A DNA stretch of 64,000 nucleotides from Lingula anatina (taxonomy: Eukaryota; Animalia; Brachiopoda): positions 18,552,567-18,616,566 of the forward strand of contig CM120649.1 of the NCBI GenBank assembly GCA_051362555.1, read 5' to 3'. The notes under the pieces were generated by a model. That model had not been told where the DNA came from and did not search any database. It saw nothing but the letters and a program-made list of their open reading frames with translations. Every line of letters begins with the position of its first letter. Within the stretch, counting starts at the first letter, position 1. Of the stretch, positions 29,181 through 45,850 are shown one piece after another. A program made the position numbers and the translations under genes.

Positions 29181-32100
29181 TCACAGAAGCTCATACTCCT
29201 CATCTGTGTCATACTGCCTGTCATCCACCACTGTGAATTCTGAATAGGAAATCAAATGAGAATTGGCCATAAGTGTCTGTGGGAATTAAAATAGTAGACC
29301 TCACATATAGTTGTCTCCTAATTTGGACTCTCACCCTTACCATGCTGAATGTTAATGTCCTGGTCTTGTCCAACAACAGAGAACAGTGAACGCATATAAT
29401 GGACTTCACATACAAATTTGCCAAAATGGCCAGTTCAAACTATATGTGAGGTCTACTAATTTTTTCAAAAATAACACAGTACATGACTCAATTAATAGAA
29501 CAATATTTGAATAAATTCAGAGATGGTAACTTTTTTCCCACAATATTACAACCACAACATGCCTTTTATAGAACAAGGTTATGTACCACAATAGGAGAAT
29601 TCAAATAAGTGAACTGTCTCTTCCCAAGATAAAAGTGATGCTTGACATGATACAATATAAAAAGACATCAAAACTAAAGGAAAAGAGGGGCATTACCATC
29701 ACTTGGGCATGTACCACCAGCTGGATTAGATACATGAAGTGAGCAAACCATCTACATCAGTTACACCAGTTAAGAGACGTACATCATTCTAAACTAAATT
29801 GTATACAGTAAATCAAACATACCAGAATTTGTTCCTGGTTGTACTTCGTAAGGCTCAAAAGGAGGCCAATGCGCTGGTCTCACTTCATGGAGCTCAAACA
29901 TGGGCGTCTTACTGCGTTTTATGATGTTGTTTCTTATGTCACTGCAGAGATTTATAAAGTCTTTCTCAGTCTTACAGAAGAATCCCTAAAGAAAAGAAAA
30001 AAATATACCTGATAAAGATAACACGCAAGCTGCGTATTGGAAGTGAGCAAGCTAGCAGTTGATATGGCCAGTATATTTCCTAAGATAACCTATTTAATTT
30101 GCTTCAAATTGTCTTAACATTTACCACAGCAATGGAGGGATCCAGTTGTGACATCTTCATTCTGCTGGCATAAGGGCAGTGATAAGATTCATCAAAAGCA
30201 TCAAGCTCCAGGTCAACATAAGGCTGTGTAGTGTGGGGGTCCAGGTACACCATTTGATCACCTGTAATATAGCACAAAGGTCAACATAGGGCTGTGTAGT
30301 GTGGGGGTTCAAGTACACCATTTGATCACCTGTAATATAGAACAAAGGTCAACATAGGGCTGTGTAGTGTGGGGGGTTCAGGTACACCATTTGGTCACCT
30401 GTAATATAGGACAAAGGTCAACATAGGGCTGTGTAGTGTGGGGGGTTCAGGTACACCATTTGGTCACCTGTAATATAGGACAAAGGTCAACATAGGGCTG
30501 TGTAATGTGGGGGTGTCTGCCTTATTTGTGTTTGCATGCTTATGCCCTCAATGAAATATCCTACAAACCAGTGAGCATGGTTGGGATTGTCCCCTATGTG
30601 TGTGTGTGTGTGTGTGCGTGTGTGCGTGCGTGCATGCTTGCATGTGTGTGTACAAGTTTTCTTACCTACATATCCTACAAACCAGTGGGCATGGTTGGGT
30701 TTTCCCCCTATGATTCCTACTGACTGTGGTAATGTCAAACACACCTGAAATAAAACAAAACACTTGTTTAATTTCGGCAAGGCTTATGCTTCAGAAATTG
30801 GTGTGAACAGGACAAGGTACAGTGTACATTTTAAGATGATTAAGTCAACAGTAAAACAGCCAAACTTTACCTCAGTTCTTTAAAGACCAGAAGTTGTACA
30901 GTTTTAAAAGGTACAAATTCTGACACTTTTTAATAAACAAATAAATTGTAATTTTTTTCAATAAGTTTAAAGTATAAAAGTTTCAAGTAACAAAATAAAC
31001 CTAAAACTGAAGTCAAACAGTTAGGTTGAAATTGATGAGTAATGTGATAATTTGATGTCTGCTTTTAATGGCACCTGTATTGTGGTAATCATTCCATGTA
31101 TTCAGGAACTTAAAGAAAAACCATCAAGAGTAAAATGTGTAAGATGAACTATCATGCTGTAGCAAACTTTTTACAGGACATTTGAACAAATCAATCTACC
31201 AACACCACCACTTCATAACTTTGGTGTCACTCTGTATCTATTTGCCTTTTTCTTTTTTTTTTTTTTTTTCTAATTTTGTAACCAGCATCTACAAGTCTAC
31301 CTTAAGACTGTCCAAGTACACAGAATTGATTTCTGACAGCCCCAGTCTCAGCGGAATGATCAACAGTAATGGCCTCCAGCTTGCTCCTTTATAGTGACTA
31401 TCACTTTCACCATTTCCATCACCATTCAAATCTTCCTTAAAATCCTCAGATAGAGGGTCACGACCATGGTGCGTTTTCCCTTTGGATTTTTGTAAAGAAG
31501 GTCCATTTTGTGAAAAGTTTGACGTTTTTGTTTGATGTATTTTTCTAAGGTTCACTGTCATTTCCTTTGACTTGTGGTTGTAACCCTCCAAAGCACCATC
31601 TTGTTCTGTTCGCACTGGTTCTTTGCACATTGTCCCTACATTTATAATAATAATAACAACTGCAATAATAATCATAATGAAAATAATAATATCAGATATA
31701 CTGAAGTTGAATGGAGCGGCCACTAAATTCATAAATGCCAGTATTTTACTGACCTATTTTACAAGGTCAAGGGCACAAAGCTTCCTCCTCCTTCTCAAGT
31801 TCACAGAACACTTTAAAATTCATTTTTTCTGACGTATAACAACATTAATGACTGTGGACAAGTACATGTAAATATATAGCTTGTAACATAGTTTAGCTTC
31901 CACATAAGCTATGTGAATTTAATTCATTCACAAACATTCACTTGAACAAAAAATGTAAAACATTGTGCAAACATTCAAACAATCATATACATATCTATAT
32001 GGCAAACAATACATACAACAACAATGTTGAATAGTTTTAGTAGCTTTGTGTTTTAAAATTTTTTTGTCTGCTGACTCTCAGACTTTATCAGGGAAATGAG

Positions 32101-33099: not shown

Positions 33100-34312
33100 C
33101 TAGCACTTAGAACAATGCCAGAGTGAGCATTGCATGTACCAATAGTCTAGACTATCACCTACCTCGTCCAATGTGTAAATGTATCAGTGCCTGGGCAACC
33201 ATCATCTGACCACAACGCAGCATACAACCCCAGCCCTGGTCTGACACGGGACCTGTACCTCCTGGGTAAAGAAAACAACTCATGTATCTACCTAGGCCAA
33301 TGCAAGGAACAATTGCCAAATCGTATTCTACCTACGCCAATGCAAGGAACAATTGCCAAATCATATTCTGCCTAGGCCAATGCAAGGAACAATTGCCAAA
33401 TCGTATTCTACCTAGGCCAATGCAAGGAACAATTGCCAAATCGTATTCTACCTACGCCAATGCAAGGAACAATTGCCAAATCATATTCTGCCTAGGCCAA
33501 TGCAAGGAACAATTGCCAAATCGTATTCTACCTAGGCCAATGCAAGGAACATTTGCCAAATCGTATTTCTACCTAGGCCAATTCAAGGAACAATTGCCAA
33601 CTCATATATACTAGGCCAAGGAGGTAATGTATTTGCTTTTGTTCTGTTGGCAGTTATCAGCCTACTAGACACTAAGAAGTTTTAAATGATACTTGCCAAT
33701 GGCACTGAAACCTCTCCTGTAGGTGAACCACAGTCTAGACAGTATGTCACCCATCAGCTCATCCATGTCTGAAATTATCACAGTATTATTTCCATGTATT
33801 AAAAAAATAAATAATTCTAATGCAACTGATCCTATTATTCTACTTTAGTAAATAAAATGATTTGATAGTTAAATCTTTGCTAGGCAACATCTTTAACAAG
33901 AGTTCTATCAAATGATTTCACAGAGGTGAAGGATACTGTATATTGGCAACAAAATACCGTATAGTGTGCTGTAAGATTTCCCCAGTATATACACTGGTTG
34001 TTCAGTCTTTGGGAACCCTTCATGTTCAAGTAATCCTGGTTCATATGTATAGGCAGCTGTAAATAGAACAGGTTATGGTTATTTAAGGGATAATAACTGG
34101 TCACTTTGGTCAAAAATGGGTTTTCCTGGGGTAAATGACAATTTTCCCATACTAACCAATGATTTATGAATCTATTCTGATATTCAAAGTTAGTCCGTGT
34201 TTTTTTTTCTTTGTAATATTCTATTGGGAGATTATTTTGAAGGTATAGCCATCTACACATGGTTTGATTGTGATAACTGCTGTTTTGGTATTAAAATGAA
34301 ATATATTTCTAT

Positions 34313-35500: not shown

Positions 35501-35587
35501 GTGTGACCTTGATGTTGTCCTTAACACAGAAAACGAGCAAGAACTCACCGTTCGCGGCTGCTTGAACGCTGGAAACGTGTTAGAAGG
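35500..35587 (+). other. Probable non-coding first exon of the nitrobindin gene (start approximate)
   Basis: Strong donor GG|GTAAGT at 35588; the next exon has acceptor TTTCAG at 36361 and contains the start codon. Confidence 0.55.
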
Positions 35588-36395
35588 GTAAGTTATGTCA
35601 GACAGACGCAGTTTTGTCACACGCAACAGCAGTTAAAACAGGAGGGACGATGAAGTTCTCGTACAGTATTCTGAAAGGTCGAAATGTTTTTTTGGAGAGA
35701 ATACGTTGTTATGCATGGGTGACATCTAACTGTGGGAAAGACAAGTCTTGTGGGTCAGTAAAAATTATTCAGTTTTTTGAAAAGACAACTTAGGAATAGG
35801 TCTGGATAATTACGATAAACTCGGACACATTTACAGTCTTCGTCTTTCCATGTGATACTTAAGTATGAGTGGAGTTAAGTATTTTTCAGTGACCTTTTTC
35901 TTCTCAGGCCAATCCTAGATTATTTTATCACACTTAACCTTAATGTTTACTTAACGAGTGTATGTTGACACTCCTTGTTAAGTGGATTAGTAAATGTAAA
36001 AGCTAAAAAGGTCCATTTGGGTTAATGTTATTTATGTAGCTTAATTTATCTGGGATTTCAAAACTGTATTTATTTATTTCATTTTATTATTTATCTCTTT
36101 ATATTTATTTATTTAGTGCCATAATAACTGATGCAGATGATTGAAGTATGATACATCTAAGGCCTTATGCCAACAAATGTTGAATTTTTTTTTCTGTTCA
36201 TTAAGAAGATGGAAAATCTGTTAATCATGAAAGAAATCAAAAGAAATAGAATGTGTCAGACCTTGATTTAATTGATAGCTTGTATGCCTTGGGTCAAGTC
36301 CTGAAATACCTCACTTGTGATAACATCCATGTGTTTGTTTGATGTTTTTCTTTTCTTTCAGAAGTGCATGCAGTAGTATAACACCAGTCAGACTC

Positions 36396-36626
36396 ATGTC
36401 ATGCTGTAAGTATGTTGTATTTATAATTTGTCATTTATTTTTCCTGAATATTTATACAAAATGTTTAACTGCAAATATTTTGGCAATTTAAGTAAATGTT
36501 AAATTTGATATGTTTTGATAATGAGGTCACATTTTTACTAGGCATTTCACAGTCATTTTTTTCACCTATCACCGTTAATGGGTTGAGGTTCTTTTCCCCA
36601 AAAAACATAAATCATCTAAAATTAAA

Positions 36627-36677
<51 letters not shown>

Positions 36678-39600
36678 CTGTTTTTTGGTGATGAATTATT
36701 GAAAACTGTCATGTTTTAGATTTCACAAGGGTTTTTGGAATTGGTCAGTTATAAAAAAGTAAAGACTTTACTGACCTACCTGCAGAAATTCATTCCTACA
36801 TCCTAAAAGTTTGTTTGGTAAAAAGAAAAATTTAAAGAATTAAGCCAAATCTGTTTTCAAGGTCACATTATTTCCAGCAAAACCACCTCAGCTGCATGAA
36901 GTCGTCAAACCTTTAGCATGGCTACTGGGAAAATGGCGATCAGAGCACGGCCGAGGGATGTACCCAACAATGAAGAACTTCACTTATGGAGAAGAGGTGG
37001 AGTTCTCACATATAGGACAGCCCAATCTACAGTATAGGTAGGTGTGAGTTTACTGTCCATGGTATAGGTAGGTATGAAAGTGTTCTGGACCATGCTTGAA
37101 GAATTTTTCAATGTAACAATACAAGACAGTAATATGTAATCATTATGAAGTCCACTGTTAATGAAGTAGATGCCCACATATATAAATATATAAAAAAAAA
37201 ATTTTTCTAAAAAGGAATACATTTATATGTGAACAAAAATCCTGAGATGCAAAGAGATTAGAAAGATGACTGACTATGAAGTAACAGATATTGATCAACT
37301 ATGCCCTGTCAGAGGCAGCCTTGGTGATGACATATTTGTAGAAAAATTCTCACAGTACAGAAATAAGCACAGCTAGTGAAAATAGTCACAGAAATGTCTG
37401 TTGACACTTTGGTGTGTGTCTGACTTTGTGATAATTGACAAGTGGGTGATGTGTTATTCATGCACCTGTCAGTGCAGGTGGTTAGTCAACCATGTAACCA
37501 GGTTTATAAAAGCTGAAGTTGATATGGAATGAAGGGCACCTGTTCCATTCCTCTTTATAAGTGCTTAGTTGAATGCCAGAAAAGGATTCTTTTGTTGTCT
37601 TCGATACTTTTTTTTGTCCAAAATCTTATTGTTCGAATCAGTTTTAGGTACCTTGTGAAAAAACCATGTATGATTGTTTTTGAATGCTGAAATTCATAAC
37701 CCTGCAAAAAAAAAAAAAAAAAAAAAAGGAAGAGAAAAAAGGAATAAAACAAACACGCAAGGAGTGCATTAACTATGCCTTAACCAGGCAAAGGGAAGTA
37801 GAATCTTCAAAAATGTACTGTACCCCAGTATATATATAAGATATTTCGGAGTTTGCAACTCGATACATTAATGATTGGTAATTGTATAAGAAAATGGTGA
37901 AGAATACCTGGTGAATTTGCTGTGTATAAAACGGGCTACTGGCAGTACGTGACTGGCCATATTTTTACATTTACTTAACCTAGGCTAGCTAGGAATCTAA
38001 AACATCTCAATATGCATTGGTTTGTTGCTTCACATACTGTATACAATAGTATGGTAACTGAAAACAATGGGATATGGTCCTTTAAAAAATGCGTAGAGTT
38101 GCCACGCAGGCCGTCATGGGTCACCAGAGGGGTTCCCCATACATACATACATTTCACCTAGGTCTCTACTGTACGTTCTACATACACCCCATTTCCATAG
38201 ATTAGATCGACCTACTTTAGATCGACCTAACTCCCTGGGGGTTCACGCTAAATAGCTGTCAGCCGGGCGGACACGAAAGTTAATTACCTCTTACAGCTTG
38301 TAGTAGGCGGGGACGGACACTTAAGGGGGATTATCTGACAGTAATCTAGTGAGACTCCCCGCAGTGATAGATCGATCTAAAGTTGTGGGAATAGACCCTT
38401 AGATTAAAGCAATGTTGCAAGTACTCTTGCTGAATGTTTCACAGATTAACATGCCTCCTCTTTTTGCCAGCGCTCTCCCATAACCACCAGATCTTAAAAA
38501 TTCTACTCAATGTCAGGAGAGGTGTGTTAATTTGATTACATTCAGTTAGGTTCCCTACGGAATTGGATCAATACCTATAGAACAAAGTTTCATTGTTAAT
38601 GAGCTCTAGGTCAGTTTTGTATATGTTGCTTAATGTTTTATGTTACAAGTAGCATCCAGTTGCATTTGTAAGAAACGTGTGATGTACCTTTTACATATAC
38701 CTATGACAAATGTCCTAAACTTATATAATTTTGAACGCTTAATTCAAGCGTGGACTCGAAATAGGACATTACGTTTTAGACTTACATAGTGGATAACGCC
38801 ATCCGAAGATTCCAGGGTTCGTGTCAGATTTACGTAAGGTCGCGCAAAGAAAACCCAAGTCCACATAATGACCAGTTAAATGATTTATTCGTTGACGCTA
38901 GGTAACTACATATTCTAAGTGAATTAAGTCTCCATCTCTTAACTCGTCCGCTCCGTGCTCCGTCACTTCCAATCTCCTCCTCCGCTGCTTCCTTCTACAT
39001 GTCTCCCGTATATCTCCCTGTTCAATCCTCATCACTTACTTTAAATACTATTTTGTTATCTTTACATGGATCCAGTGCTGCACTAGTATGAGTGTTAAAA
39101 ATAAATACCTACAGTTACAATTGTTATTATTAATATTATGACTTTTCTATTTGAAAGGCCATATGGTTCAACTGATAAAGTTTGCACATGATTTTTTATA
39201 ACAAAAGATTATTGATGTAACCTTGATCTTTCAAAAGTTTTTAGAGCAAGTAAGTCAACAACAAGCCATTGTGTAGCTGATGCACTTAATTGACAACCAT
39301 ATACACAACATTTCATATTAAATTAGTTTATTTTTACTCAGTTGAGTTGTTTGACAGAACCAACGATAAACTACTCGGCATCCATAATTTGCCTGCATTT
39401 TTACTCCCAACTTAATAAATAACTGATGGCACTGAAAACTCCTTTCACACTCTGCATAGTAACCCAGATAATGCCCAGGGATTTGACCTTTTTTTGAGAT
39501 GTGAACTTTTCCACCCATAACTTATATTTTATGTGGGGCCTTGTGCGTGCCACCTTGATAAAAACACCTTTAGAATTCCCACTGTTTTGTCAGGTGAAAC

Positions 39601-40225
39601 ATTCTTTACCTATTGTGTGTGGTTATTTGAGGTCAAGCCAAGGGGGTGTGATCAGCTGTTATTTTTTAGGTTATATACTATATGATGGCATGGCATTGTA
39701 CATGGCCCTATTCACCTGGTGCAATATGTGCACACTTTTGAGAGATTGACAGCTTAATAACCTGGCTATTGTAGAAGACGATCAAGAAAAATTAACAGAG
39801 CTTCTCTGCTCTAATTCAGGACTTGCATTGTACAACATAATTTCTCCTCTACATTTGCTCAGAATTAAATCCCTGTCTTCTCTACATCAAGATTTGCATT
39901 GAACAATTTCTTGATTTCTGTGTTACAATTTGCCAAGAATGAAACTTCTCCCTTTTTTTTTTAATTCAGGATTTATATTGTTCAGTATCACATACAGTTT
40001 TATATGCTACATTTGCCAGTATAACTGTATTTAAGTTCCTCTCTGCTCTGTTCCAGGGCCTACTCTTGGATGGGTGACCACGACACCCCGATGCACAGGG
40101 AGATAGGATATGTCAGGCTACAGCCTGGTAGTCTACATGTGGCCTTCATCATAGCTCATAATACGGGTGAGGATGGGGCTCCTCTTGGGTGAGGGGTTGG
40201 AAACTGCTAGGTGCCACCTGCTGGC

Positions 40226-40276
<51 letters not shown>

Positions 40277-43200
40277 GTTATTTTTGTAATGAAGTTTTGA
40301 GCTGGTAAGATAGATTTGTTAATACTGAGTTGCTATATCTTTTATGTCAGAGGTCAGACATATGAATATATATAAATGTACAAATTTGGAAATAACTTAT
40401 GCACATATTTTGTTCCAGCCTGACAAAATAAATCATATACTACAAAATGCTGTTTTAAAAAGCATGCTTGCAGTGTCTACCACTTCAACACTCTTGCTTT
40501 ATTCTGTGCAAATGATGGAAATTTTGCCTTGGTGTTTTTAGAAAGCCAGTTCTGCTCACTTTTGTTCAAAATGTTTGTTAAGATTTGAGATTTTAATTAG
40601 TTGTCAGTGGTATAATCTCATCAGAGCAATGATTACCTGTAGATAGTGAGGCAAGAAGCATGTCATTCCAAAATAATTCACACACACTAAGAAAAGCCAG
40701 AAATTTACTTACAAGTACATGTTTGTGAAAACCCTCTTTACAATACATTTACATTATTAGCACATTTAACTTTAATGATTTACATCCACTGGAATTTATA
40801 GTACCACCACCTTAATACACAGCTGGGGGGGGGGGGGGGTATTTCTGATTCAAGCACCTGTCTTGTGTATATGCCCACATCTGCATCTGTGCCAAATACT
40901 ATGCTACAAATACACACAAGACTTTGCTACTCAGGGCAACTTCTTTATCTCCAAATTTCCATTCATACCTGCTTGTTGCATGTGAACTTTACCATCTATT
41001 CAGTGCATTGCACTGGATCAATATATTCAGTGTATTGCATTCCCTGCTGTGGAACCAGGAAATCTGGACAACTTTTTAATGATATTTTGTTTTTTATTGG
41101 CCTGGCAAGCTTCCAAGCATGGCGAGCATCGAATCTGAGGCTCGAAGAACGAAGACATTTCAAAGACTTTTTTTCTGATTTTTACTTGTCACTTGAATTT
41201 TATCCTTGATTTATTTATCCATTTATTTTTATTTCCTTTAATATTATTATTATTATTATTATGTACCAGTCAATATGCATGACCTCTATTTATAGCCCAG
41301 TTTATATGTTAATTTGCATGTCACTGCCCCCCCCCCTCTTTATTTCCTTTCTTTCTTCCCGTGTAACAACTCAAAAACATGTCACAGACTATAAATTTCT
41401 TTTGCTTGTTTGTGTTTCTGCAAATTATTTAAAGCTCTGTTCACTATATGCACGTTTGATTGCAGCAGTTTTGCTTCAGTGATCTTTATATCTGCAGCGT
41501 TTGTTTGGCTCTAGGCTTGTCTGAGGTAGAGGAGGGGGAACTGGCGGGCCGCTCCATGCACCTCACTTCTACTCAGTGTGTTCGGGTGTCTTTTGGTAAA
41601 GAACCGGCAGTGAAGAAGGTGAAACAAATTTTTCTTTGAGTAATGTTTTCTACATCTCTGTGATTTTGAAGTGAAGGAAATAGGAACAAACATGGAAATC
41701 CTGTCATCTTAGGCCGCATTCAGAACAGTGGACTGTGACACTCTGAGGGCCAAATATGACTATCCACTGAAAAGTGTGCCATCTAATCCGCTATTAGAGA
41801 CTGAATAGATTCCCATGGGGAAGAATTCAAGTGGGTCGGCCATGTTTGACCCTCGGTTAGTTAGTCAATTATTCTGAATGCAGCCTAAGAGGAAACTTCT
41901 TTTATTTGGTATACTTTTGGCAAGTTTTTGCTTCCCCAAGAGTAATCTGAACTCTTTTAACACAGTTTATTTATTTAGTTATTTTTTCACTTTACTTGTT
42001 TGTTATCACAACTTTTTTTCGGGATGTTATTTCCAAAACATTCATTTTGAAAGTGTTGTTATCACTTCACTCGTGTTTAAATATGTTATATAATTTATTC
42101 ATTCTTTTATCTCTATTTATCTATTACTAGCATGCACTTGCTTTGCTATGCTTTAGGTGTGGCTGTTATATATAATTCCAGTGTTCTAATTTGCATGGGT
42201 TGCTATGGACATTTAAAGACGTATTGCCACACAAGTTAGGCAGCCCATCTCTTAAACCCATCACCATAGTTTGATGCAGGCTGTCAGGCTCTTCAGACAA
42301 TAAAATGATTGTGTATTTATCGTTGGGAATTTATTTATTTATTTATTTATTGACAATAAATACACAATTACTTTATTGTCTGAAGAGCCTGAAAGAGGCC
42401 AATACATTTATGACAAATTATTAGCCATTCCAATCATAATGTGACTTGTTTTGACTTTTAAAAAAATTATTTATTTAAATAGGTGTGAAGGAATTTCACT
42501 CACTGACTGTGGTGAGCATATCTGTATAAGGCACTCCCTAGAGAATGGGTAGCCTATCTGCACTATAAATACACCTAATTGTTTGTGTTCTCTATCAACC
42601 TACTTGTGTGGTTTGAGAATATACTGTTATATTTTTTTTATCTATTTTAATGACGTGTGATACTGTATGTCTGTTCATTAAACTTGCACCACACACATTT
42701 TTGCAGAAAGTACCATGAAACAGCTACGTATTCTTCCATTACCCTTTGCGGGGAAAAAATCCGAACAAAAAACTTTATACATTTCAGGGTTATGATTTGC
42801 ATATTCCGTGATTGAGAGAAACAAGAACTATTACTTCCACCACCACCCCTTTCTTATCCCTTATCCCTTATCCTATTGTCACCCATCCTGGTGATCCTCC
42901 ATCCCTTAACTATCCCTTAACACCTGTCAGGATTGTGTTACATGTTACAATTTCAGGTTTGTCTGAAGTAGAAGAAGGGGAAGTTAATGGAACGACAATA
43001 AAACTTGAATCAAAAGGAATTTCCAGGCTGTCATTTGGCAGTGAACCCTCAGTGAAGAAGGTAGATTTCTGTTGAATGGCTTTTGAACCACTCTTTAAAT
43101 TTTTGATCTATGTTTGTGTTTGATTTTCTGGTTGAACGTACAAATTTTAGTTCTCTTGGAATGTCTTTCCTCTATGTATTTCTTAATTTTTTCTTTGGAA

Positions 43201-44918
43201 AAAAAAAAAAAAAAAAAAAAAAACAGGCAATGGTTTGGATCTGAGGGCTGTAAATTGCTGTGATCTGTGTGTAGTCTGTACCATAATTTTGATTCCCGTC
43301 ATCTAATTAGGTCAAAAACAGCAACTTAAAAGGAGAGTAAAATAGTGTTGGCATTGTTTCATGAATTACCAAGGACATCAAATTATTTTATGATCAGCCA
43401 CCGTGTTTTATGCTCTTTGATTTCACCATCAAAGCTATGCATGGTTGTTTTGGAGATGCCAGAAAACACTCAATGGTGACTTAGAGTCAATGTCGGGAAA
43501 CACATGTTCTGGTAATTGCCAGTTTGGCAAACGTTTCTGCACTTACCCTGTGATTTTGGGCATTCCTTGCACTCCTTGGCGTTAATGAAGATGTTTATAG
43601 TTCAAGATGAAAATGTCAGATATCAGAAGGGGAAGGACAGTAAAAGAGCAAGCACCTGCTCAGACAGTGTATGTGTGGACAGTCAGTCTGAAATTAGGGA
43701 TTTGATCACAACAGAATCCAGTTTTACAAAATTACTTAAACCTGACGGTTGTTCTTAACTCCTAAATTATTTATAATTTATTTATTCATATATTTATTTT
43801 AATTTTTCAATTTTCAGTCAAAACCCAATGTACAAATAAAATGTCTAGTGTCCTAACTTTTTTAGGTCTGTATATAAATAATGTTTTTATTTGGGTGACA
43901 CTTTCGGTTATGTTTGATATGAAAGTTGCGCTTCAGCAATGGTGCCTTTGTCATTAGTGATGCAAGGTTTGTGAAATAACACAGCCTGGATTAGAAATCT
44001 GAAGATAAAGAACTGTAGTGGCTTGGTTGTGGTAGGTGGGAGATGCTGTCATTGCAGTAGTTGAGAAGGATGTGCTGAGCATTGTGCTGGGAAGTGATTA
44101 CTGGATTGGCTGATCATGTAGCATGTGTCATATGCGTCAGATGTAGAATTGTTAGGAATAAACTGGTCGAGGCCCTTATTCCTTTCCAGCGTGTACGCTT
44201 AATTAACATTTCAAGGTACTAATGTAATGGGTTGTGTTGAATAGATAAGATAATGCTTGGGTTGATATTAAACAAATAAACAATGAAGTAAGTATATCAA
44301 TAAATGGATAATGATGAAGTAAAAAAAAAAAATGTGATAAGTACCACTAGTTTTGTTGAGTGAAAATGTATGAATTCCCTAATGTCAAGTCTGAGAAACA
44401 AGAAGGATGCATAGTAGAATTTATAATTTTAACAGAAATGAACAGTAAGTTTATTACTCAGATCTGCAAGCTGGTTGTCATTACCCAATTAATCTTTTGT
44501 CACAAACTGCAAAATTATTCACATGAGATATTCAATGGACCATGGAACATCAGCCGCTTCACTAAAGTGTGTGTGTGGGGGGGGGGCATAAGATCTCTAC
44601 TATGTGACACAGCGCCATCTGTGTCATTCAGCAACTGATGAAGATGGCAGACAGTCCACAGACTTAACTCATGGCAGTAATTTTGCATTTTGTGACAGAG
44701 TACTGGTACTGTTATCATCCACCAAAATGATGACCCAAATATTCCCTGTTCAAACGTTCCAGATAGTTCGCACATTCAGGATGAAGGAGGAGGACGTACT
44801 GGAGCAAGTAATGTACATGGAGACCTCACGCACGCCACTCACTGAGCACCTCCGTATCCAGTATAAGAAACAGAAACACCACGCCTGGGAGGACAACGTC
44901 TTCTATACTGCATACTAG
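36396..44918 (+). CDS. THAP4: Nitrobindin / peroxynitrite isomerase (THAP4 C-terminal heme-binding beta-barrel) without a THAP domain, about 179 aa, two predicted isoforms
   Basis: Exons 36396-36405 (MSC), 36878-37037 (KPLAWLLGKW..GRGMYPT..YGEEVEFSHIGQP), 40057-40166 (PMHREIGYVR..VAFIIAHNTG), [41515-41618 OR 42957-43060], and 44763-44918 (IVRTF..LEQVMYMET..PLTEHLRIQYKK, containing the heme-ligating His). Total 540 nt, in frame. Confidence 0.92.
38183..38400. mobile_element. About 215-bp MITE (PIF/Harbinger-like), three near-identical copies
   Basis: Nearly identical to 58305-58522 and, inverted, to 51833-52049; gatcgatcta subterminal motifs; TWA flanks. Confidence 0.8.
41515..41618 (+). CDS. 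THAP4: Nitrobindin alternative exon A (mutually exclusive with 42957-43060)
   Basis: ctctag|...|gtgaaa, 104 nt, phase 1-0, open: GLSEVEEGELAGRSMHLTSTQCVRVSFGKEPAVKK. Confidence 0.82.
41712..41885. mobile_element. Tourist/Harbinger-like MITE between the two alternative exons
   Basis: TIR GGCCGCATTCAGAA / TTCTGAATGCAGCC with TWA flanks; relatives at about 60866-61039, 60340-60543 and 58205-58303. Confidence 0.7.
42284..42392. repeat. 37-bp inverted repeat (hairpin) with a 35-nt loop
   Basis: 42284-42320 pairs with 42356-42392 with one mismatch and one G-U pair. Confidence 0.85.
42957..43060 (+). CDS. THAP4: Nitrobindin alternative exon B (mutually exclusive with 41515-41618)
   Basis: tttcag|...|gtagat, 104 nt, phase 1-0, open: GLSEVEEGEVNGTTIKLESKGISRLSFGSEPSVKK. 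Confidence 0.88.
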
Positions 44919-45850
44919 ACATGGGGCACCTGCCAGGATGGACGGAGAGGAGTCCAGGGGATATACACTTTGTGGACACAATTGCAACAGATTGTTTATG
45001 CTTAAGCATGTATTTCTATGGTAATTGGTGGCCATTTTGGATTTTTTCCCCATGCGTGGATTTTTCAGGACATTGAGTATGTTGACAAGGAGACTTCAAG
45101 GAATTGCATTATGCAAAAAAAAAAAAAAAAAATTCTGCTGCAGTTTTGTCCAGTTTTATGGCAAAAGTGGTCCATCTAGCCTGGACTTTGGGGCAGGGCT
45201 GACATGTACCAGCCAAGATGCATACAGGACATTTACTTTTAATGGGACAGTAAAGGGGGGGGGGAGGGGGGCTTGATAATATGCTGAATTCCTTTCTGCT
45301 AGGTATGTCCACACTGAAGCTATTCTAGCGAGGTAGTTATTTAGAGTACCTTGAAGGCATTTGTCAGCTGATATTCCATATTACAATGTTATACAATTAA
45401 TATGACCACCTTTGGTCACATACTGATATATAATTATCTAATATTCTGCCATATTATAGGGTTAGGGGTATAATGTGCTTTGCTGTGTAGTGTTATGTAA
45501 CTTAATCAGCTTTTACCTGTGCATAGTACAACATATCTGTATAGACTATGAATATTTGACAGGGAAGTAAGGGCTAATATTTTGTTAGATTTTTTTCTCA
45601 GTTGTATATATGTTTGATATGGATATAATTAAAAGATTATGCATTTATTGTCACATGTACAACCTCGATCAGAATCTTCTATCAACGTAAACTTTTAATG
45701 TTTAACAGAAGAAAGGACTACGAAGGATGAGTAAGAAGGCAGCCTCCGGAAGGTGGGGTGTACAGCTGCAGAAATAATTGTTCTTTTCGTCTACTCTCAC
45801 CCAAGTAACACATGCACCTCGGAATGCATTCGGCATATGAGACACTGCTC

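What the first reader, a model, noticed from the sequence alone, without database searches (positions are those of the whole stretch)
41515..43060. Duplicated, frame-enforced mutually exclusive exon pair in a nitrobindin (heme / peroxynitrite isomerase) gene
Seen: two homologous exons, 41515-41618 and 42957-43060. Both are exactly 104 nt and phase 1-0, with AG/GT ends and no stops. They encode GLSEVEEGELAGRSMHLTSTQCVRVSFGKEPAVKK and GLSEVEEGEVNGTTIKLESKGISRLSFGSEPSVKK (21/35 identical). Within the conserved GLSEVEEGE block the differences are synonymous third-position changes, as expected if both exons are under purifying selection. Including both or neither breaks the frame, so only one can be used. 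Established: this segment forms internal strands of the 10-stranded nitrobindin barrel. Exon B is closer to human THAP4 as I recall it (EVEEGEVNG), while exon A adds a His and a Cys. Inference: splicing switches between two heme-barrel isoforms that may differ in NO/peroxynitrite chemistry, redox sensitivity or dimerisation. I know of no described mutually exclusive splicing in nitrobindins, but could not search the literature.
Basis: partly seen in the sequence, partly recalled or inferred. Interest (0 to 1): 0.85.

Follow-up and report, generated by a model that had tools for sequence, protein, structure and literature searches.

The report
Swappable duplicated exon in Lingula nitrobindin
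In the lamp-shell Lingula, the gene for a heme-binding barrel protein (nitrobindin) carries two copies of one exon, and RNA reads show messages using one copy or the other, giving two protein versions that likely differ on the barrel's outside rather than in the heme pocket; this is a known kind of splicing, in a gene family where our searches found no report of it.

Summary
The window is Lingula anatina. Exons A (41515-41618) and B (42957-43060) are homologous 104-nt GT-AG exons of a stand-alone 179-aa nitrobindin gene. RNA reads from 8 runs show all four expected junctions. No A-to-B or skip-both junction was listed in the 4 runs with a complete table. B is the main form (364 of 396 downstream junction reads). 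A's share ranges from 0 to 38% between runs (permutation p 0.001-0.004). Exon A is under purifying selection. RefSeq already models both forms as isoforms X1 and X2. No second case appeared among 296 mapped homologues, which included no other named brachiopod. The proposed heme-chemistry switch is weakly supported: the two published heme-contact positions inside the swapped segment are identical in A and B, and His109 is common in homologues. A's distinctive patch is Gln114-Cys115-Val116. 'Frame-enforced' is only half right, because the skip-both stop lies in the last exon. Verdict: a real homologous mutually exclusive exon pair, a new member of a known kind, functional effect untested. Interest 0.4.

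The parts
35527..35587 (+). exon 1 (non-coding; 5' end approximate)
   Evidence: joint 35586->36361 GT..AG and a pile of read ends at 35527 in X8
36362..36405 (+). exon 2, ATG at 36396 (residues 1-3 plus one base)
   Evidence: the spliced translation equals the stored RefSeq proteins
36878..37037 (+). exon 3 (residues 4-57)
   Evidence: PF08768 56.1 bits vs cutoff 25; junction reads
40057..40166 (+). exon 4 (residues 57-94), with His70, Glu72, Asn92, Thr93 of the distal pocket; common upstream exon
41515..41618 (+). mutually exclusive exon A (Gly94-Lys128), minor form, RefSeq isoform X2 (XP_013392412.1, P0008)
   Evidence: junction reads on both sides; purifying selection
41704..41893 (.). MITE-like inverted-repeat element in the A-B intron, 85 nt after the exon A donor; no role shown
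   Evidence: 31-nt arms, 84% complementary; pile-up of partly matching reads
42957..43060 (+). mutually exclusive exon B (Gly94-Lys128), major form, RefSeq isoform X1 (XP_013392405.1, P0001)
   Evidence: junction reads
44763..44918 (+). coding part of the last exon (residues 129-179, stop 44916-44918), with the proximal heme ligand His157; common downstream exon
   Evidence: His157 invariant in 103 aligned proteins

Best explanation
The Lingula nitrobindin gene holds two homologous copies of its fifth exon, which likely arose by tandem duplication and are spliced one at a time: B is the main form, A a minor form whose share differs between samples, and the two proteins are predicted to keep the same ten-stranded barrel and heme contacts while likely differing in an outer or rim surface that tunes partner binding, dimer contact or stability. 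Shown: structure, homology, four junctions, unequal shares, purifying selection on both copies. Inferred: the spliceosome chooses between two exons with similar non-consensus donors, with cell-type splicing factors raising A in some samples; double-inclusion products would be removed by nonsense-mediated decay, while skipping both is likely avoided at splicing itself. Inferred: the functional difference sits in strand 7 and the following loop, chiefly Gln114-Cys115-Val116 of A.
For: Junction reads for both paths, with no A->B or exon4->exon6 joint listed in the complete table of 4 runs. A share by downstream junction: 0/12, 0/21, 6/16, 2/12, 1/55, 4/85, 7/71, 12/124 for X1, X2, X4-X9; heterogeneity p 0.001 by reads, 0.004 by distinct starts; X4 and X5 differ from X6 of the same study (Fisher p 0.0005-0.003). 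A vs B dN 0.39, dS about 1.6; A keeps 9 of 9 columns that are at least 70% conserved and matched by B, which 5 of 4000 neutral simulations did without a stop; differing sites are the variable columns (entropy 2.48 vs 1.45, p 0.0005). Flanking introns keep no extended homology. Both AlphaFold2 models have 10 strands, pLDDT 93; the A model matches 3IA8 at rmsd 1.0, TM 0.96 by target. Of 12 heme-site positions listed for Arabidopsis nitrobindin (PMC10135655 section 12), 2 fall in the segment (Leu95, Val126, mapped by hand) and are identical in A and B. Of 23 cavity positions chosen for engineering (PMC7894531 passages), 5 fall in it and only residue 125 differs (Ala/Ser). Homologous MXE differences are generally surface-exposed (PMC7954323 abstract).
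Against: No functional difference was measured. The tissue or stage of the runs is not known, so 'regulated' rests on unequal shares with low counts (32 A reads in all; comparisons chosen after seeing the data; individuals or alleles could also explain it). Side-chain orientation and the dimer surface were not computed. The animal-specific loop (about 115-122) is missing from the Arabidopsis protein, so its heme contacts are not covered by the lists used, and residues 118 and 122 differ there. Absence of both/neither products is limited by depth (3-read listing threshold; 6-30% of each run read) and by decay. Selection on A between the window and the diverged reads of study P3 is not significant alone (3 synonymous, 2 non-synonymous, p 0.10; 0.04 with one polymorphic synonymous site; from truncated variant tables).
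Confidence: 0.55

Rival explanations
1. The swap changes heme or redox chemistry: isoform A's Gln114-Cys115-Val116 patch and the Lys122/Ala125 loop reshape the heme mouth, or Cys115 acts as a nitrosylation or redox site, giving a second NO/peroxynitrite activity.
For: Gln114, Cys115 and Val116 occur in 1, 0 and 0 of 101 homologues, at columns that otherwise hold mostly small (114, 116) or aliphatic (115) residues. They lie just before the conserved Arg117-x-Ser-Phe120 loop. Residue 125 maps to Arabidopsis Lys127, a cavity-rim position. No change at codons 115-116 was listed in the diverged P3 reads (tables truncated). Precedent for an enzyme switched by MXEs: coq-2 (PMC7434440 passages).
Against: Listed heme contacts in the segment are identical; proximal His157 and distal His70, Asn92, Thr93 lie in shared exons. 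His109 is common in homologues. Gln114 is His in the P3 reads, so that site is not fixed. Unlike coq-2, no cross-species conserved A-type signature was found.
Confidence: 0.2
2. Functionally equivalent redundancy: A is kept foldable only because it is included in a fraction of transcripts; its substitutions are near-neutral drift and the varying share is noise or allele-dependent.
For: Differences fall in variable columns. A is about 8% overall and absent from 2 of 8 runs at the depth read. A's residues at the 14 differing sites fit the family profile worse than B's (summed log2 frequency -58.0 vs -39.9). Not seen in other phyla.
Against: Near-saturated synonymous divergence with no indel or stop and all 9 conserved sites kept implies long retention. 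Shares of about a third in two runs against 2% in a third run of the same study. Curated human cases of this event type are mostly old and conserved (PMC8373072 abstract and passages).
Confidence: 0.22
3. Exon A is a dead duplicate, or an assembly artefact (two haplotypes placed in tandem).
For: Low A counts; no A junction in X1 and X2.
Against: A has junction reads in 6 of 8 runs, including a diverged population; it is constrained; A and B differ at 41 of 104 nt, far more than alleles; both share the same flanking exons in reads.
Confidence: 0.03

Closest known systems
Nitrobindins (Pfam PF08768 THAP4_heme-bd; human THAP4 C-terminal domain PDB 3IA8, Arabidopsis At1g79260 PDB 3EMM/2A13, M. tuberculosis Rv2717c)
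   Same: 48% identity to 3IA8 in the structural alignment, ten-stranded barrel model, proximal His and distal His/Asn/Thr conserved.
   Different: Stand-alone (no THAP zinc finger), a 15-residue C-terminal tail, and two alternative versions of strands 6-7. The human isoform switch seen in the literature adds or drops the THAP domain (PMC12578292 passages), not a barrel segment.
Homologous mutually exclusive exons / tandem exon duplication-derived substitutions (236 human events, e.g. PKM; PMC8373072)
   Same: Tandem, equal length, same phase, homologous, one used per transcript, fold predicted to be kept, length not divisible by three (as in 60% of human clusters, PMC5740500 passage).
   Different: THAP4 is absent from the 236-event table (0 hits in main text and supplement). 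Most human events are shared with fish, whereas this pair was found only in Lingula among the proteins examined.
coq-2 exons 6a/6e (PMC7434440)
   Same: Two equal-length mutually exclusive internal exons (134 nt, also not divisible by three) in an enzyme of invertebrates.
   Different: The coq-2 swap changes invariant residues at the substrate site, is shared across helminths, annelids and molluscs, and has a shown function. None of these is shown here.

Membership tests
nitrobindin | PF08768 domain | tested here: met
   Exon 3 scores 56.1 and exon 4 25.9 bits against cutoff 25; the full protein carries PF08768.
nitrobindin | ten-stranded antiparallel beta-barrel | tested here: met
   Predicted only: 10 strands in both models; Foldseek of the A model to 3IA8 E 4.9e-18, rmsd 1.0.
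nitrobindin | proximal His (At His158, human His155) and distal-side His (At His76) | tested here: met
   His157 and His70 align to them; His157 invariant, His70 at least 90% conserved in 103 rows.
nitrobindin | heme binding, NO binding, peroxynitrite isomerisation | not testable with these tools
   Needs purified protein.
full-length vertebrate THAP4 | N-terminal THAP zinc-finger domain | tested here: not met
   The ORF is 179 aa, starting a few residues before the barrel; transcripts begin near 35527. It is a stand-alone nitrobindin despite the RefSeq name.
homologous mutually exclusive exons | tandem, same length and phase, homologous | tested here: met
homologous mutually exclusive exons | each exon spliced to both common flanking exons | tested here: met
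   All four joints, GT..AG; three of four also shown.
homologous mutually exclusive exons | no exon-joining or skip-both transcripts | tested here: met
   None listed in the complete joint table of 4 runs (threshold 3 reads from 2 starts; 174 upstream and 212 downstream junction reads). One search hid 29 of 44 rows and cannot be used.
homologous mutually exclusive exons | pair conserved across species | tested here: inconclusive
   Both exons are used in a diverged population under the same species label (X7-X9). No second pair among 296 mapped proteins, but no other named brachiopod or phoronid was in the set and genomes of relatives could not be searched.
MXE enforced by steric hindrance | branch point within about 50 nt of the upstream donor | tested here: not met
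   A-B intron is 1338 nt; branch-like motifs lie 40 and 51 nt before exon B. Branch points are not mapped experimentally.
MXE enforced by U2/U12 incompatibility | a U12-type donor on one side | tested here: not met
   Donors of exon 4, A and B do not match the U12 consensus (consensus recalled).
MXE enforced by docker/selector RNA pairing | competing long-range helices, conserved across species | tested here: inconclusive
   In 9 region pairs the best ungapped helix did not clearly exceed dinucleotide shuffles (best case 3 of 60 shuffles as good); conservation could not be tested.
MXE enforced by frameshift and NMD | premature stop well upstream of the last junction in both wrong products | tested here: inconclusive
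   Met for double inclusion (stop 42969-42971, 89 nt before the last junction); not met for skip-both (stop 44843-44845 in the last exon). The 50-55 nt rule is recalled and untested in brachiopods.

The most novel reading that the evidence does not exclude
Exon A encodes a tissue- or stage-switched nitrobindin whose Cys115-containing patch beside the heme mouth converts a peroxynitrite/NO scavenger into a redox-gated or NO-releasing form, a splicing switch in reactive-nitrogen handling in a burrowing brachiopod, comparable to the coq-2 switch.
Probability: 0.12. Interest if true: 0.7.

Novelty: new member of a known kind. Interest (0 to 1): 0.4.

Why it matters
The physiological role of nitrobindins is still described as obscure (PMC9599043 abstract). 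A natural pair of proteins identical except for 14 residues in strands 6-7 and the next loop, both kept by selection and used in different proportions between samples, is a ready-made structure-function test of what that face of the barrel does. It also adds a lophotrochozoan, apparently lineage-restricted example to a class of splicing events catalogued mostly in vertebrates and insects. Without a measured difference between the isoforms it remains an annotation-level finding that RefSeq already holds implicitly.

Tried and rejected
No whole genome was held, so relatives' genomes were not searched. Run search: no RNA holder listed; 9 raw-read runs under the same species label were offered and 8 were laid (X3 was not). 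A homologue search with exon A plus a few intron codons found nothing (13 candidates; weak evidence). Search for a second MXE pair: of 339 stored proteins 296 mapped; of 400 pairs with at least 95% identical flanks 8 had segment identity of 86% or less; 7 were vertebrate-type cross-species pairs or boundary artefacts at 83-86% and only Lingula A/B was at 60%. Named isoform sets of Haliotis, Dreissena, Littorina, Gigantopelta, Mizuhopecten, Patella, Magallana, Pomacea and Branchiostoma share one segment. Dating the duplication: a 35-column tree of 32 chosen rows is unresolved; A and B were sisters in 0 of 1000 ultrafast bootstrap trees, but the AU test does not reject them as a clade (p 0.376), so the age is open. 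Long-range RNA pairing: nothing clearly above shuffles (a first script timed out). The two original crystal-structure papers and one review were not held. Earlier findings of the scan: nothing in 3 look-ups. Rejected: U12 incompatibility, steric hindrance, pseudo-exon, haplotype artefact, His109 as a special residue.

Full report
1. Observation. Exons A (41515-41618) and B (42957-43060) are each 104 nt, flanked by AG and GT, open in the same frame, and 63 of 104 nt identical. Of 35 codons 10 are identical, 11 synonymous and 14 non-synonymous. The gene is: non-coding exon 1 ending at 35587, exon 2 (ATG 36396), exon 3 (36878-37037), exon 4 (40057-40166), A or B, last exon from 44763 with stop at 44916-44918. 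Either exon gives 179 aa; both give 132 aa and neither 120 aa, each lacking the proximal His157. No third copy lies in the window, and the introns around A and B keep no extended homology.

2. Identity. Exon 3 is 100% identical to XP_013392405.1 of Lingula anatina. That cluster has 3 members, of which 2 were read: RefSeq isoforms X1 and X2. They equal the window's B and A spliced translations letter for letter, so automatic annotation already holds both forms. The protein is a stand-alone nitrobindin: PF08768, E 1.9e-47 (B) and 2.3e-46 (A) to human THAP4 3IA8. AlphaFold2 with 103-row alignments gives ten strands and pLDDT 93 for both, and the A model overlays 3IA8 at rmsd 1.0. The swapped segment, Gly94-Lys128, covers strands 6 and 7, the following loop and the start of strand 8.

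3. Expression. Eight of nine offered RNA runs were laid, 6-30% of each run read. In one search, whose joint table showed no hidden rows, exon4->A had 0, 6, 1, 6 reads, A->last 0, 2, 1, 12, exon4->B 13, 6, 60, 82 and B->last 21, 10, 54, 112 in X2, X5, X6, X9; no A->B and no exon4->last joint was listed (threshold 3 reads from 2 starts). In one search (15 of 44 rows shown) A->last had 0, 6, 4, 7 and B->last 12, 10, 81, 64 in X1, X4, X7, X8. Overall A is 32 of 396 downstream junction reads. Shares differ between runs (permutation p 0.001 by reads, 0.004 by distinct starts); X4 (6/16) and X5 (8/24 over both junctions) contrast with X6 (2/116) of the same study. Tissue labels are not shown, counts are low and the pairwise tests were chosen afterwards, so regulation is likely, not shown. 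Runs X7-X9 carry many fixed differences from the window yet use both exons; L. anatina is reported to diverge among localities (PMC8146825 abstract).

4. Selection. Between A and B, dN is 0.39 and dS about 1.6 (near saturation). The 14 differing sites are the variable columns among 101 homologues (mean entropy 2.48 vs 1.45, p 0.0005). A keeps all 9 columns that are at least 70% conserved and matched by B; 5 of 4000 neutral simulations with 14 changes did so without a stop. Against the diverged reads exon A shows 3 synonymous and 2 non-synonymous fixed changes (Met108Leu, Gln114His), not significant alone (p 0.10), read from truncated tables. A is therefore a constrained exon, not a dead copy.

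5. Distribution. Among 339 stored proteins, 296 mapped over segment and flanks; only the Lingula pair showed identical flanks with a strongly different segment, and named isoform sets of nine mollusc and amphioxus genera share one segment. The set held no other named brachiopod or phoronid, only 27 clusters were opened, and protein collections miss unannotated exons, so 'Lingula only' is provisional. A and B are as far from each other (21/35) as from their best matches in other animals (21-23/35). The 35-column tree cannot date the event (AU p 0.376).

6. What the swap changes. Arabidopsis heme-site positions are Thr40, Phe44, Met75, His76, Glu78, Thr98, Leu100, Val128, Ile131, Met148, His158, Leu159 (PMC10135655, section 12 read in full). 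Mapped by hand through the alignment, only Leu100 (Leu95) and Val128 (Val126) lie in the segment, and both are the same in A and B. Of 23 cavity positions chosen in an engineering study (PMC7894531 passages), five lie in it and only residue 125 differs (Ala/Ser). His109 occurs in 11 of 101 homologues; Gln114, Cys115 and Val116 of A occur in 1, 0 and 0. This patch ends strand 7 just before the conserved Arg117-x-Ser-Phe120 loop, which Arabidopsis lacks, so an indirect effect on the heme mouth is not excluded. Side-chain direction and the dimer surface were not computed. I infer an outer or rim difference (partners, dimer, stability), in line with the general finding that such exons change surface residues (PMC7954323 abstract).

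7. How exclusivity is kept. Steric hindrance is unlikely (1338-nt intron, branch-like motifs 40 and 51 nt before B) and no donor is U12-like (consensus recalled). No long-range helix clearly beat shuffled controls in 9 region pairs. Double inclusion puts a stop 89 nt before the last junction, a likely NMD substrate; skipping both puts the stop in the last exon, where junction-dependent decay (recalled rule) would not apply, yet no such joint was listed. Exclusivity is thus probably set largely at splicing, with frameshift as a filter for double inclusion. In human clusters of this frame type, joining reads were found for 22% (PMC5740500 passage).

8. Literature. Full-text searches: nitrobindin + mutually exclusive (1 paper), nitrobindin + splic (6), nitrobindin (57, 30 listed), THAP4 + isoform + exon (9), Lingula anatina + mutually exclusive exon (1), THAP4 + mutually exclusive (7), nitrobindin + dimer interface (5), Lingula + nitric oxide + brachiopod (22, 15 listed). 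No listing concerns this event; most were judged from title and abstract start only. THAP4 is absent from the main text and supplement of the 236-event human catalogue. MetazExp includes L. anatina and calls MXE events with rMATS (passages), so the event may sit in that database unseen. A coral preprint names nitrobindin only in its references; bioRxiv supplements were closed. Passages only were seen of PMC10094804, PMC6275384, PMC9599043, PMC7434440, PMC12578292, PMC5740500; passages and the discussion of PMC7915275. Subscription papers, including the original structures, were not available.

9. Verdict. A real, expressed, constrained pair of homologous mutually exclusive exons in a nitrobindin gene; a new member of a well-known class, already implicit in RefSeq, found in one lineage so far, with a functional effect that is plausible but untested. 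Interest 0.4.

Noticed in passing
window 44868-44915: A 15-residue C-terminal tail (residues 165-179) not present in the 12 mollusc-type rows of alignment A1 nor the 10 other C-termini printed; the diverged reads show 3 synonymous and 1 conservative change there, suggesting constraint.
   Followed up: partly
window 41704-41893, 42281-42395, 44498-44697: Three inverted-repeat (MITE-like or hairpin) elements in the introns around the exon pair (31, 43 and 33 nt arms); the first draws many partly matching reads from elsewhere in the genome.
   Followed up: partly
window 38016-38997: High-copy, partly palindromic repeat(s) in intron 3 with very deep pile-ups of partly matching RNA reads on both strands.
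   Followed up: no
runs X7-X9 on window 36362-45050: Reads under the same species label differ from the window at many fixed exonic sites (about 5 in exon A's 104 nt) and have a 3' UTR rearrangement near 44920: a diverged population or cryptic species.
   Followed up: partly
P0074, P0075, P0079-P0084 and similar vertebrate models: Several vertebrate THAP4 gene models carry an unrelated insertion exactly after the residue matching Lys128, suggesting the intron 3' of this exon is at the same position in vertebrates (inference).
   Followed up: no
P0019/P0029, P0017/P0274, P0016/P0321: Batillaria, Mya and Mercenaria have two nitrobindin gene copies on one contig, i.e. whole-gene rather than exon duplication.
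   Followed up: no
window about 33295-33620: Tandem array of a unit of about 40 nt upstream of the gene, seen by eye.
   Followed up: no
window about 31290-31640: Looks by eye like a coding exon on the minus strand, possibly of a divergently transcribed neighbour.
   Followed up: no
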